From Escherichia phage Killian, in the sequence record OQ446694.1: a stretch of 64,000 nt of DNA. One strand, written 5' to 3'. The notes below the pieces were generated by a model. It saw only the letters and a program-made list of their open reading frames with translations. It had not been told where the DNA came from and ran no database searches. Position numbers and translations under genes: made by a program. This document shows positions 8,072 to 63,844 of this stretch, piece after piece (positions within the stretch are counted from its first letter, which is position 1; every line of letters begins with the position of its first letter).

Positions 8072-8257
8072 TTAAAGCGTATTCACATAAGCTATTAATT
8101 CGTTTTCTTTCTTATCAAACCGATCAGCAAATTCTTCTTGTTGATCGGGAGATAGCGGGCCGTATTCATCATAAAAGGTGTTTGCTTCTGTATGCTCATC
8201 TAGAAGTTCATGGATAAGCTCAAACAATTTATCTTTTTGTTCTTTACTCAGACTCAT
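8072..8257 (-). CDS. Small acidic hypothetical protein (61 aa), tk.1 position
   Basis: ORF track. Confidence 0.5.
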   Translation of the reverse strand: MSLSKEQKDKLFELIHELLDEHTEANTFYDEYGPLSPDQQEEFADRFDKKENELIAYVNTL

Positions 8258-8427
8258 ATATTAATTTCCAGGAGTTTTAAAATAATTCGCTTTTGCTTAA
8301 ATATTTCCATAGTTAAATGACCAGTATCTTTTTGACCGATTCCAATGGCAAAACCTTTATTGACAGCGAGTTCAATTAAATTATCAAGCTCACGTAACAC
8401 TTCATATTGTAACTCAAAACTATTCAT
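8254..8427 (-). CDS. Small hypothetical protein (~57 aa), not in ORF track
   Basis: ATG at 8427, stop overlapping the start of 8072..8257 (ATGA coupling); below the track length cutoff. Confidence 0.35.
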   Translation of the reverse strand: MNSFELQYEVLRELDNLIELAVNKGFAIGIGQKDTGHLTMEIFKQKRIILKLLEINI

Positions 8428-8651
8428 TTCGGTTTACCTTCTTTAACGAAATCGGGATAAGGATAAAATCCTGAATAAAATCCTTCACCTTTATGATTGA
8501 TGCATCCTTTATTAGAACAATAGCACCAATAATCGAAATCACAAGCCATTTCATCATTACATAAAGCAAAAACAACTGGCCATTCACACTTTTCGCAGTG
8601 GGCATTTTTAAGAATACTTGTTTGGCTCATAACCATGTAACCTTTAAACAA
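8424..8651 (-). CDS. Small cysteine-rich protein (75 aa), possible zinc binder
   Basis: 12 Cys/His in CEKCEWPVVFALCNDEMACDFDYWCYCSNKGCINH. Confidence 0.45.
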   Translation of the reverse strand: MFKGYMVMSQTSILKNAHCEKCEWPVVFALCNDEMACDFDYWCYCSNKGCINHKGEGFYSGFYPYPDFVKEGKPK

Positions 8652-8839
8652 TATTCTTCTACGTGTTGTTTACGACCTTTCTTATCAATAAAGTTATATT
8701 CAACGAATGTTCCAATATAGTCTTTATCTACACCATGTGGACTATTAATTGGGCATTTAGTACGGCAAATGCGTTCCCATTGACGAATAATTTCCACTTT
8801 GTTTTTAGGATCAAACGGATGCGGGTAATGTACTTTCAT
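8627..8839 (-). CDS. Small hypothetical protein (70 aa)
   Basis: ORF track. Confidence 0.45.
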   Translation of the reverse strand: MKVHYPHPFDPKNKVEIIRQWERICRTKCPINSPHGVDKDYIGTFVEYNFIDKKGRKQHVEEYCLKVTWL

Positions 8840-9290
8840 AATCCACCACTATTAAATCAATATCAGGAGTAAACATGTCGATTAATTTAGAAACCTTATC
8901 CCAATCGCCGCCAGCAATACCGCAACCTATACGTGGAATGTAAATTACTGGTTTAAACAAAAGGGTTTCTGCCTGTAGATTTAATTCTATCATGCAGTTT
9001 ACTAAAGCACCATAATCAAGATTAGGACCCGGTTCGTATTGTGTATACAGGTTATAGCATATACTAAATCCCGTAGGACTATGTTTAAAAACAATAGACA
9101 TATCGCCTAATTTATCACGAGAACCGTACTCGGTAGTGGTTTTATCTATTTCTAAAATTTTGGGATAGGCTCTTGCTAATTGACCCGCTACGCCAGAGCC
9201 CATTGTGTGGAAGCAATTGCACCCGTGCGCAATAATATTACCTTGAAGAAATAGGGCGACAATATCGCCCTTGATATATTTTACAATCAT
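8811..9290 (-). CDS. Macro-domain-like protein (putative ADP-ribose binding/processing)
   Basis: Glycine-rich motifs IAHGCNCFHTMGSGVAGQLARAY and IPRIGCGIAGGDWDKV resemble macro-domain phosphate-binding loops; inference from motif resemblance only. Confidence 0.45.
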   Translation of the reverse strand: MIVKYIKGDIVALFLQGNIIAHGCNCFHTMGSGVAGQLARAYPKILEIDKTTTEYGSRDKLGDMSIVFKHSPTGFSICYNLYTQYEPGPNLDYGALVNCMIELNLQAETLLFKPVIYIPRIGCGIAGGDWDKVSKLIDMFTPDIDLIVVDYESTLPASV

Positions 9291-10668: not shown

Positions 10669-10697
10669 ATTATACCACAGTCAAGAGGAAAAGTAAA
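10669..10697 (-). promoter_or_regulatory. Sigma70-type early promoter for regB (TTTACT-N17-TGGTATAAT)
   Basis: Perfect extended -10 TGGTATAAT on minus strand. Confidence 0.7.
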
Positions 10698-19241: not shown

Positions 19242-19318
<77 letters not shown>

Positions 19319-19321
19319 TAA

Positions 19322-19987
19322 TTAAAATTTCATTTTTCGACCTTTAAACCATCCTTCTGGAATTGGGTCAGTTTTCTTAATACGTTTAGAAACTTTTTCA
19401 TCTAATGAATGAATCCACATCATACCAAATTGGGAATTCTTTTCGCCCTGTTGATGTTTATTTCTGGCGTGAGATTCTTTCATTTTATTAATAGTTTCAG
19501 GAGTATGGGTCTTGCCCAAGAAAGATTTAGTATTTAAAAATTTCTCTCTATACTTAGGATTATCCCAAAGCTGTTTAAACCTTTCTGAACCCATTTTACG
19601 ATATTTTTCTTTAAGGTCTGGGTCGTTCTCAAATCTGGTTTTAAAAGCGGCAGCTCCTTTTAAGGAAGCTTCTTTCTTTTTATCCAAATATTCTTTAGTG
19701 TTTAAATGGTCCCAACCACCTTCACCACCTAATTTCAAATTATAAACATCAGGGCGCTTTAAAAACTCTTCAGTCACAATATTCTTTTCTGACTCAAACA
19801 TAGAGGTTTTATCGTCAAAGAACTCTAATATTTCTTTAGAAAAATTTTCTATACCATACTTATCTTGGGCTCTTTTTAATAATTTACCAGAACCCATATA
19901 TCCATCATCTAAATTTTCGGTAGAATGAGCGCCTATATAGATTTTATTATTAATTTTATTTGTTATTTTATAAATGTAATGGAACAT
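19322..19987 (-). CDS. segB: GIY-YIG homing endonuclease SegB
   Basis: 221 aa; N-terminal GIY-YIG motif (HYIYKITNKINNKIYIGAH); located between tRNA-Ile and tRNA-Arg as in T4. Confidence 0.85.
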   Translation of the reverse strand: MFHYIYKITNKINNKIYIGAHSTENLDDGYMGSGKLLKRAQDKYGIENFSKEILEFFDDKTSMFESEKNIVTEEFLKRPDVYNLKLGGEGGWDHLNTKEYLDKKKEASLKGAAAFKTRFENDPDLKEKYRKMGSERFKQLWDNPKYREKFLNTKSFLGKTHTPETINKMKESHARNKHQQGEKNSQFGMMWIHSLDEKVSKRIKKTDPIPEGWFKGRKMKF

Positions 19988-20018
19988 AAATATCTCCTAT
20001 TTCTAAGAGTATTTATGT

Positions 20019-20090
20019 TCCCAAAATATGGCCCTGGGTGGAATTGAACCACCATCTGGCGATTATGAGTCGCTTGCTTGAACCTTCCAG
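20019..20090 (-). tRNA. tRNA-Ile (anticodon CAU; T4 tRNA-Ile homolog, often auto-called tRNA-Met)
   Basis: Manual fold: acceptor GGCCCTG/CAGGGCC, anticodon loop CTCATAA, T-loop GGTTCAATTCC. Confidence 0.75.
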
Positions 20091-20096
20091 CTACAG

Positions 20097-20169
20097 GGCC
20101 TTGATATGCTGATTGACGGAATCGAACCGCCGACATCCTCATTACAAGTGAGGTGCTCTACCTACTGAG
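20097..20169 (-). tRNA. tRNA-Thr (anticodon UGU)
   Basis: Manual fold: acceptor GCTGATT/AATCAGC, anticodon loop CTTGTAA, T-loop GGTTCGATTCC. Confidence 0.8.
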
Positions 20170-20176
20170 CTAAATC

Positions 20177-20263
20177 AGCGAAATTACGGAGGCGATAGGA
20201 TTTGAACCTATGAGTCGCCGGAGCGACTGCCGGTTTTCAAGACCGGTGCATTAAACCACTCTG
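20177..20263 (-). tRNA. tRNA-Ser (anticodon UGA), type II with long variable arm
   Basis: Manual fold: acceptor GGAGGCG/CGCCTCC, anticodon loop CTTGAAA, variable arm GTCGCTCCGGCGACT. Confidence 0.8.
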
Positions 20264-20265
20264 CC

Positions 20266-20339
20266 ACGCCTCCAGTCTCCGCGGCAGGATTTGAACCTGC
20301 GACATTCTGCTCCCAAAGCAGACGCTCTACCAAACTGAG
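20266..20339 (-). tRNA. tRNA-Pro (anticodon UGG)
   Basis: Manual fold: anticodon stem CTGCT/AGCAG with loop TTTGGGA; 2 nt from tRNA-Ser (dimeric precursor arrangement). Confidence 0.8.
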
Positions 20340-20352
20340 CTACACGGAGTAA

Positions 20353-20516
<164 letters not shown>

Positions 20517-20532
20517 CCATTCTCGCTCTATA

Positions 20533-24745: not shown

Positions 24746-24770
24746 ATGTTTCTCCTCAAATTTAGTTAAG

Positions 24771-24794
24771 ATTATAACATATGAAACTGAAGCA
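24771..24794 (-). promoter_or_regulatory. Candidate MotA-dependent middle promoter for gene 1 (MotA box AATGCTTCA, 11-nt spacer, TATAAT)
   Basis: Minus strand TTTAATGCTTCA-N11-TATAAT about 25 nt upstream of the gene 1 SD. Confidence 0.5.
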
Positions 24795-63818: not shown

Positions 63819-63844
63819 ATTATACCACGTTTATACGTGAAGCA
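63819..63844 (-). promoter_or_regulatory. MotA-dependent middle promoter for uvsY (MotA box TAATGCTTCA, 13-nt spacer, extended -10 TGGTATAAT)
   Basis: Minus strand ATGCTTCA-N13-TATAAT about 40 nt upstream of uvsY ATG; MotA box overlaps gene 25 stop. Confidence 0.7.

What the first reader, a model, noticed from the sequence alone, without database searches (positions are those of the whole stretch)
8811..9290. Possible macro-domain protein among early genes
The 159-aa protein has two glycine-rich segments (IAHGCNCFHTMGSGVAGQLARAY; IPRIGCGIAGGDWDKV) arranged like the ADP-ribose-binding loops of macro domains. A macro-domain enzyme would be notable in a phage lineage that uses ADP-ribosyltransferases (Alt, ModA and ModB in T4) to modify host proteins, and could also counter host ADP-ribosylation-based defences.
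Basis: inference. Interest (0 to 1): 0.5.

Follow-up and report, generated by a model that had tools for sequence, protein, structure and literature searches.

The report
Phage tk.4 macrodomain, anti-DarT2 counter-defence
The flagged gene is a real macro-domain (ADP-ribose-handling) protein, but it is the already catalogued tk.4 gene of T4-like phages, whose T4 version was recently shown to protect the phage against the bacterial DarTG2 defence that tags phage DNA with ADP-ribose.

The parts
8811..9290 (-). tk.4 (adfM-type) coding sequence, 159 aa plus TGA stop; single macro domain
   Evidence: ORF list and translation. Pfam Macro 33 bits. Annotated tk.4 in the near-identical Shigella phage vB_SsoM_113. 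58% identical to T4 Tk.4, E 6e-71.
9183..9227 (-). Loop 1, residues 22-36 (HGCNCFHTMGSGVAG). H22, G23, N25, C26, G33 and A35 are invariant in 110 family members. H22, G23 and N25 align to SCO6735 H24, V25 and N27, and N25 aligns to DarG N22.
   Evidence: Family alignment; hhalign; SCO6735 mutagenesis literature.
9039..9053 (-). N80-L-Y-T-Q84 motif. Invariant Q84 occupies the position of the catalytic Lys of DarG (K80) and TARG1 (K84), and of the essential Gln85 of SCO6735.
   Evidence: literature.
8901..8936 (-). Loop 2, residues 119-130 (PRIGCGIAGGDW), the diphosphate-binding loop. G122 and G124 align to SCO6735 G126 and G128. A126 sits where TARG1 has catalytic D125.
   Evidence: SCO6735 G128E data.
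8840..9242 (-). Diverged allele block: 57% DNA identity to T4, flanked by vs at 97.8% and tk.3 at 88%. This is a mosaic replacement of the gene body starting after about codon 16.
   Evidence: DNA alignment and per-segment identities.
9287..9290 (-). ATGA overlap of the vs stop and the tk.4 start, an arrangement consistent with translational coupling (coupling is inferred)
   Evidence: same arrangement in T4.
8811..8839 (-). 29-nt overlap of the tk.4 3' end with the tk.3 start. It encodes the tail YESTLPASV, in which residues 156-159 have pLDDT below 50. It arises from a 13-nt gap relative to T4, where the overlap is only ATGA.
10669..10697 (-). Candidate sigma-70-type promoter upstream of regB (TTTACT-17-TATAAT with TG) that could drive regB-vs.1-vs-tk.4. 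Weak evidence only.
   Evidence: Consensus scan. The number of such sites in the region is no higher than in shuffles (22 against 22.7), so this is a lead, not a finding.

Best explanation
The gene is the Tequatrovirus tk.4 orthologue (adfM in the T4 nomenclature). It encodes a stand-alone 159-aa macrodomain enzyme, probably made early in infection. It most likely removes ADP-ribose that the host toxin DarT2 attaches to N3 of thymidine in single-stranded phage DNA, which would restore replication and defeat the DarTG2 defence. It probably does not use the lysine chemistry of the DarG antitoxin and human TARG1. Instead it would use the Gln-type mechanism described for Streptomyces SCO6735. In that mechanism Q84, held by N25, positions the distal ribose, and a water molecule held by the backbone of residue 23 starts cleavage. 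Shown here: the gene, its fold, its orthology and synteny, the invariant H22/N25/Q84/G122/G124 set, and the correspondence of those residues to SCO6735. Taken from literature: the T4 knockout phenotype and the SCO6735 biochemistry. Inferred: that this 58%-identical allele has the same activity, and that the activity is enzymatic rather than toxin binding.
Against: No biochemistry exists for any Tk.4-family protein. The T4 evidence is genetic and comes from a preprint. This allele is only 58% identical to the tested one. The SCO6735 residues implicated in DNA handling are not conserved: K34 corresponds to S32, and K89 lies in a 5-residue loop insertion that is absent here. The HxCNC motif and the historical annotation point equally to Poa1p-type small-molecule ADP-ribose-1''-phosphate phosphatases. 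A cellular relative in Pelagimonas is a stand-alone gene with no toxin neighbour, so the ancestral role may be metabolic. Model coordinates could not be inspected, so the active-site geometry rests on alignments.
Confidence: 0.7

Rival explanations
1. It is a small-molecule ADP-ribose-derivative hydrolase of the Poa1p type (ADP-ribose-1''-phosphate phosphatase or O-acetyl-ADP-ribose deacetylase). It would clear NAD-derived metabolites or toxic or signalling ADPr derivatives rather than DNA adducts. This is the historical 'phosphatase, A1pp motif' annotation.
Against: The only phenotype known for the T4 orthologue is specific to DarTG2, a DNA-modifying system. Poa1p has Ser, not the family-invariant Gln, at position 84 (my reading of Poa1p's LFTS; that stretch lay outside the printed alignment). 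The best profile match is SCO6735, which acts on DNA and protein substrates. The two activities are not mutually exclusive.
Confidence: 0.12
2. It protects mainly without catalysis, by binding and inhibiting DarT2 or by shielding ADP-ribosylated DNA. It would be a macrodomain-shaped toxin inhibitor.
For: Catalytically dead SCO6735 Q85A, DarG K80A and TARG1 K84A all inhibit DarT in vitro, and SCO6735 does so most strongly. The catalytic lysine is absent. The allele is highly variable outside the ligand loops, as expected for a protein-protein interface in an arms race.
Against: The ligand-binding and catalytic positions H22, N25, Q84, G122 and G124 are invariant across 38-97% identity, which argues for selection on catalysis. 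The protein lacks the C-terminal DarT-binding domain of DarG: it is 159 aa and matches only positions 3-144 of the 329-position model.
Confidence: 0.1
3. It erases or tunes ADP-ribosylation written by the phage's own Alt, ModA and ModB transferases on host proteins or RNA.
For: T4-like phages encode these transferases. TARG1-class macrodomains can act on protein and RNA ADP-ribose.
Against: Alt and Mod mainly modify arginine (own knowledge). Arginine-ADPr is reversed by ARH1, not macrodomains, per the review read. There is no genomic linkage to alt or mod in this neighbourhood. The T4 knockout showed no defect without DarTG2.
Confidence: 0.04

Closest known systems
T4 Tk.4 = AdfM (anti-DarT factor Macrodomain; NP_049723; bioRxiv 10.1101/2025.11.20.689424)
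   Same: Same locus between vs and tk.3, same orientation, and the same ATGA coupling to vs. Similar length (159 against 155 aa). Same invariant residues, including Q84. 58% identity with E 6e-71.
   Different: The gene body is a different allele: 57% DNA identity inside flanks of about 98% and 88%. Loop 2 reads GCGIAGGD, the family consensus, where T4 reads GAGIGKGN. A 13-nt gap at the 3' end gives a 9-residue tail read through the tk.3 start. Anti-DarTG2 activity is untested for this allele.
Streptomyces coelicolor SCO6735 (PDB 5E3B), Gln-type ALC1/TARG1-like macrodomain hydrolase
   Same: Gln at the catalytic-lysine position (Q84 to Q85), plus H22 to H24, N25 to N27, and G122/G124 to G126/G128. 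Loop 2 is nearly identical (PRIGCGIAGGDW against PRIGCGLAGGTW). It is the best profile match at 98.6% and E 1.4e-15. SCO6735 is also an orphan with no adjacent DarT, and it cleaves dT-ADPr DNA.
   Different: About 28% identity. The window protein lacks the 5-residue loop extension carrying K89, and has S32 where SCO6735 has K34. SCO6735 is cellular and DNA-damage-inducible rather than a phage early gene.
DarG antitoxin macrodomain (PDB 5M3I, 5M31) and chimallivirus PhiKZ gp104, also named AdfM (PMC13309987)
   Different: DarG and PhiKZ gp104 carry the FPTK motif with the catalytic Lys (K80 or K78), while Tk.4 has YTQ. On the PADLOC DarG model, PhiKZ gp104 scores 133 bits and the window protein 28. 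BLASTP between the window protein and PhiKZ gp104 finds only short, weak matches (best E 0.001 over 23 residues). There is no C-terminal DarT-binding domain and no adjacent toxin. The two proteins named AdfM belong to different macro subfamilies.
Human TARG1/OARD1 (PDB 4J5S)
   Same: Top Foldseek match (E 3.9e-10, TM 0.71-0.80). Shares the KGD, His and PRIGCG motifs. TARG1 also cleaves dT-ADPr.
   Different: Both TARG1 catalytic residues are replaced: K84 by Q84 and D125 by A126.
Yeast Poa1p (PDB 6LFQ) and Bacteroides BT1257 (PDB 2AFC)
   Different: Poa1p appears to have Ser at the Q84 position (my reading of its LFTS stretch, outside the printed alignment) and acts on small-molecule ADPr-1''-phosphate. 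BT1257 has no known function.

Membership tests
Macro domain (Pfam PF01661) | Profile match above the curated gathering score | tested here: met
   33 bits against a cut-off of 22, E 6.4e-8, profile positions 2-117 of 118
Macro domain (Pfam PF01661) | Three-layer alpha/beta/alpha fold with a central mixed sheet | tested here: met
Macro domain (Pfam PF01661) | Two glycine-rich ADP-ribose-binding loops, plus the Asp after strand 1 (KGD) and the Asn before loop 1 | tested here: met
   The GSG (31-33) and GCGIAGG (122-128) loops, D9 and N25 align to the corresponding residues of DarG, TARG1 and SCO6735
Macro domain (Pfam PF01661) | Binds ADP-ribose | not testable with these tools
   Needs ITC, a crystal structure, or a docking model with coordinates
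T4 Tk.4 / AdfM orthologous group | Conserved position between vs and tk.3 in a Tevenvirinae genome | tested here: met
T4 Tk.4 / AdfM orthologous group | Full-length sequence similarity to T4 Tk.4 | tested here: met
   58% identity over 155 aa with no gaps, E 6e-71
T4 Tk.4 / AdfM orthologous group | Confers resistance to DarTG2 | not testable with these tools
   Reported only for the T4 allele
DarG antitoxin (NCBIfam NF048014; PADLOC PDLC02990) | Score above the equivalog cut-off | tested here: not met
   28.6 bits against a cut-off of 250. PADLOC gives 28 bits, against 133 for PhiKZ gp104.
DarG antitoxin (NCBIfam NF048014; PADLOC PDLC02990) | Catalytic lysine (K80) in the FPTK motif | tested here: not met
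   Aligned residue is an invariant Gln84
DarG antitoxin (NCBIfam NF048014; PADLOC PDLC02990) | C-terminal DarT-binding domain and an adjacent darT gene | tested here: not met
   The 159-aa protein matches only model positions 3-144 of 329. Its neighbours are vs and tk.3.
SCO6735-type (Gln-type) ALC1/TARG1-like hydrolases | Gln at the position of the DarG/TARG1 catalytic Lys | tested here: met
   Q84 aligns to Q85 at 98.6% hhalign probability and is invariant in 110 sequences
SCO6735-type (Gln-type) ALC1/TARG1-like hydrolases | His24, Asn27 and Gly126/Gly128 equivalents | tested here: met
   H22, N25, G122 and G124 are all invariant
SCO6735-type (Gln-type) ALC1/TARG1-like hydrolases | Five-residue extended mobile loop carrying Lys89/Lys94, and Lys34 | tested here: not met
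   There is a 5-residue gap after Q84-Y-E-P, and S32 sits at the K34 position
SCO6735-type (Gln-type) ALC1/TARG1-like hydrolases | Hydrolysis of thymidine-linked ADP-ribose on ssDNA | not testable with these tools
   Requires an enzyme assay
TARG1/OARD1 | Catalytic Lys84 and Asp125 | tested here: not met
   Q84 and A126 at the aligned positions
Poa1p-like ADP-ribose-1''-phosphate phosphatase | H-x-C-N-C motif with the His probed by the Poa1p H23A mutant | tested here: met
   HGCNC aligns to HSCNC. The mutant list comes from PDB titles.
Poa1p-like ADP-ribose-1''-phosphate phosphatase | Phosphatase activity on ADPr-1''-phosphate | not testable with these tools
   Requires an enzyme assay

The most novel reading that the evidence does not exclude
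The Tk.4 family, including T4 AdfM, is a Gln-type DNA ADP-ribosyl-thymidine glycohydrolase. That would make it mechanistically distinct from the Lys-type DarG antitoxin and from the chimallivirus protein that shares its name. The sharp allele replacement seen here, 57% DNA identity inside near-identical flanks, could then reflect an arms race in which different tk.4 alleles neutralise different DarT2 variants or other nucleic-acid ADP-ribosylating defences. On that reading this allele has a specificity the T4 allele lacks.
Probability: 0.15. Interest if true: 0.55.

Novelty: already known. Interest (0 to 1): 0.25.

Why it matters
The result mainly confirms existing knowledge. T4-like phages carry an orphan macrodomain as one layer of a multi-layer anti-DarTG arsenal alongside AdfA and AdfN. 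Two points have some value. First, the catalytic lysine that defines DarG and TARG1 is an invariant glutamine in the whole Tk.4 family. That ties T4 AdfM to the SCO6735 mechanism rather than to DarG, which is the comparison made in the preprint passages I read, and it gives directly testable mutants (Q84A, Q84K, N25A). Second, tk.4 is a recombination hot spot with a graded series of alleles from 97% to 58% identity. That offers natural variants for mapping specificity against DarT2 variants. Neither point would greatly surprise a specialist.

Tried and rejected
(1) Single-sequence AlphaFold gave pLDDT 35 and was discarded. The 109-sequence alignment fixed this. (3) The phmmer alignment slid the NLYTQ loop against BT1257 ('GIYKD'), which wrongly suggested a nearby Lys. 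Alignments with the longer-looped relative P0088 and with hhalign show that BT1257 and SCO6735 'NMIGQ' align to NLYTQ. (4) A terminator-like hairpin inside codons 7-13 (9253-9271) is not more stable than shuffles (z -1.73, 15 of 200), so I treat it as coincidental. (5) A MotA-box-like middle-promoter match lies inside the gene (8984-9009, minus strand). It is not conserved in T4, which reads CGCTT, and is probably chance. (6) The sigma-70 scan shows no enrichment over shuffles, so promoter assignment stays tentative. (7) I looked for a toxin partner next to a cellular relative in Pelagimonas and found none. (8) I considered true DarG membership and rejected it on score, catalytic residue, domain architecture and gene context. 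(9) I considered a link to Alt/ModA/ModB and rejected it on linkage chemistry and on the absence of genomic association.

Full report
OBSERVATION. The interval 8811..9290 holds a 159-codon ORF on the minus strand, with ATG at 9290-9288 and TGA at 8813-8811. The plus-strand reading is full of stops. The start codon overlaps the stop of the upstream 115-aa gene (ATGA), and the last 29 nt overlap the start of the downstream 70-aa gene.

IDENTITY OF THE WINDOW AND THE GENE. The region is 99.8% identical to several Tequatrovirus genomes. In Shigella phage vB_SsoM_113 the gene is annotated tk.4, lying between tk.3 and vs in the order rI, tk..., tk.3, tk.4, vs, vs.1, regB. The T4 reference record calls tk.4 'phosphatase; contains A1pp phosphatase motif'. 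Other near-identical records call it 'macro domain protein'. A tblastn search finds relatives in 2790 phage records.

WHAT IS ALREADY KNOWN. A November 2025 preprint (10.1101/2025.11.20.689424) screened a T4 transposon library on E. coli expressing DarTG2. It found tk.4 as the single significant hit, and a clean knockout sensitised T4. The authors named the gene adfM and proposed enzymatic removal of ADP-ribose from DNA, based on structural similarity to M. tuberculosis DarG. Earlier work showed that T-even phages resist DarTG2 independently of AdfA and the NADAR enzyme AdfN (gp30.3), which predicted a further factor (PMC11257639). A 2026 Cell Reports paper used the same name, AdfM, for the chimallivirus PhiKZ gp104 macrodomain. 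[quoted passage not shown] A 2022 survey reported macro domains in 41% of myoviruses (PMC9503650).

WHAT THIS COPY ADDS, PART 1: A MOSAIC ALLELE. The protein is only 58% identical to T4 Tk.4 (90 of 155 residues, no gaps), although the neighbours are nearly identical to T4. DNA identity is 97.8% across vs. It drops to 57% from about codon 17 of tk.4 to the tk.3 start, then recovers to 88% overall, and about 93% in the bulk, across tk.3. A 13-nt gap relative to T4 just before the tk.3 ATG shifts the end of tk.4. It therefore reads 29 nt into tk.3, producing a tail in which residues 156-159 have pLDDT below 50. Metagenomic relatives form a graded series at 97, 82, 79, 75, 65, 62 and 58% identity, so tk.4 is a variable cassette rather than two discrete alleles. 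Differences from T4 concentrate in the beta-hairpin (residues 60-79, 35% identity) and the C-terminal helix and strand (131-155, 24%). The ligand loops are 65-89% identical. The window protein keeps all 28 family positions that are at least 90% conserved. T4 deviates at two of them, K127 and L137.

WHAT THIS COPY ADDS, PART 2: THE CATALYTIC RESIDUE. In a 110-sequence family alignment spanning 38-97% identity, the invariant positions are H22, G23, N25, C26, G33, A35, D49, N80, Y82, Q84, P119 and W130. I confirmed reference sequences against the PDB sequence library: M. tuberculosis and T. aquaticus DarG, TARG1 and SCO6735. For SCO6735 a tag offset of 20 reproduces the published H24, V25, N27, K34, Q85, K89, G126 and G128. 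Profile-sequence alignment puts Q84 on DarG K80 (97.6%) and on TARG1 K84, with A126 on TARG1 D125 (98.2%). The family therefore lacks the lysine described as catalytic in DarG and TARG1, whose mutation inactivates both (PMC8883491; PMC9967889). PhiKZ gp104 has the DarG-type FPTK motif and scores 133 bits on the PADLOC DarG model, against 36 for T4 Tk.4 and 28 for the window protein. BLASTP between the window protein and gp104 finds only short, weak matches (best E 0.001 over 23 residues). The two proteins named AdfM thus belong to different macro subfamilies.

THE BEST MECHANISTIC PRECEDENT. The literature supplies one. Streptomyces coelicolor SCO6735 (PDB 5E3B) has Gln85 at the lysine position, cleaves thymidine-linked DNA ADP-ribose efficiently, and protects against DarT. 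It is completely inactivated by Q85A. N27 is proposed to lock the Gln rotamer, and a water held by the V25 backbone is the proposed proton donor. H24 and G128 were among the other residues probed by mutagenesis, and G128E substantially reduces activity (PMC9411070; PMC9967889; PMC12879935). The Tk.4 family profile aligns best to SCO6735 (98.6%, E 1.4e-15, 28% identity). That alignment gives H22 to H24, G23 to V25, N25 to N27, Q84 to Q85, and G122/G124 to G126/G128, with an almost identical second loop (PRIGCGIAGGDW against PRIGCGLAGGTW). BT1257 also has Gln in an NMIGQ motif. Not everything matches. The window protein lacks the five-residue loop extension carrying K89 and has Ser at the K34 position, so its DNA contacts must differ.

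MOST LIKELY FUNCTION. The protein is most likely an orphan Gln-type DNA ADP-ribosyl-thymidine glycohydrolase, made from the leftward early or middle transcription unit, that strips DarT2 adducts from phage ssDNA. I put confidence at about 0.7. Shown here are the fold, the orthology, the conserved residues and their correspondence to SCO6735. Taken from literature are the T4 phenotype and the SCO6735 chemistry. Inferred are the transfer of function to this allele and the catalytic rather than binding mode.

RIVALS. (a) A Poa1p-type small-molecule phosphatase or deacetylase, which is the historical annotation. It is supported by the shared HxCNC motif and strong Poa1p matches, and by a stand-alone cellular relative in Pelagimonas with no toxin neighbour. 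It does not explain the DarTG2-specific phenotype. (b) Non-catalytic inhibition of DarT2. This is plausible because dead SCO6735, DarG and TARG1 mutants inhibit DarT in vitro, but the invariance of the catalytic positions argues against it as the main mode. (c) Reversal of the phage's own Alt/ModA/ModB marks. This is unlikely because arginine-ADPr is an ARH1 substrate rather than a macrodomain substrate and there is no genomic linkage.

CONTEXT CHECKS THAT LED NOWHERE. The sigma-70-like sites in 7-13 kb are no more frequent than in shuffles. The best candidate upstream is TTTACT-17-TATAAT with TG at 10697-10669, ahead of regB. A hairpin in codons 7-13 is not significant. A MotA-box-like match inside the gene is not conserved in T4.

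VERDICT. Novelty is 'already known' and interest is low to moderate (0.25). The residual value lies in the Lys-to-Gln difference, which ties T4-type AdfM to the SCO6735 mechanism, and in the sharply mosaic allele.

Noticed in passing
window 8424-8651 and 8254-8626 (minus strand), downstream of tk.3: Below about 8626, similarity to T4 collapses. Where T4 has tk.1 and tk.2, this phage has RB32-type ORFs (RB32ORF110c/111c in the closest record). They include a Cys-rich 75-aa ORF (…CEKCEWPVVFALCNDEMACDFDYWCYCSNKGCINHKGEGF…). This is a second mosaic block next to the tk.4 one.
   Followed up: partly
window 19242-20526 (minus strand): ARAGORN finds seven tRNA genes: Arg-tct, Met-cat, Thr, Ser, Pro, Gly and Leu. 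From memory, T4 has eight, including tRNA-Gln, which was not detected here. The 'Met-cat' gene is probably the T4-type tRNA-Ile read via a modified CAU anticodon.
   Followed up: no
window 9253-9271 (minus strand), codons 7-13 of tk.4: A perfect 8-bp GC-rich hairpin (AGGGCGAT ATT GTCGCCCT) followed by a T-rich run lies exactly where identity to T4 ends and the diverged allele begins. It is conserved in T4. Its folding energy is not significant against shuffles (z -1.73). The coincidence with the recombination boundary is unexplained.
   Followed up: partly
window 8984-9009 (minus strand), inside tk.4: There is a MotA-box-like middle-promoter pattern (TGCTTTA-N12-TAGAAT) inside the coding sequence. 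T4 reads CGCTT at this site. Window-wide the pattern occurs 13 times against 4.9 expected, so some of the other sites (for example 24769-24794 and 63819-63844) may be real middle promoters.
   Followed up: no
L005:12518-13006 (PhiKZ gp104) compared with window 8811-9290: There is a name collision in the literature. 'AdfM' denotes both T4 Tk.4 (Gln-type, 28-36 bits on the PADLOC DarG model) and the chimallivirus gp104 family (Lys-type FPTK, 133 bits). The two are only remotely related macrodomains.
   Followed up: yes
L003:5001-5459 (Pelagimonas phthalicica chromosome): A cellular member of the Q84-type family (about 40% identical) sits alone among housekeeping-looking genes (Peptidase_M23, Trp_halogenase) with no ART or DarT neighbour. 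Its best PDB match is SCO6735. This suggests a broader class of orphan Gln-type macrodomains in bacteria.
   Followed up: partly
metagenomic relatives P0001-P0016 of window 8811-9290: tk.4 alleles form a graded identity series at 97, 82, 79, 75, 65, 62 and 58% rather than two discrete types. T4's own allele deviates from the family consensus in the diphosphate loop (GAGIGKGN against GCGIAGGD).
   Followed up: partly
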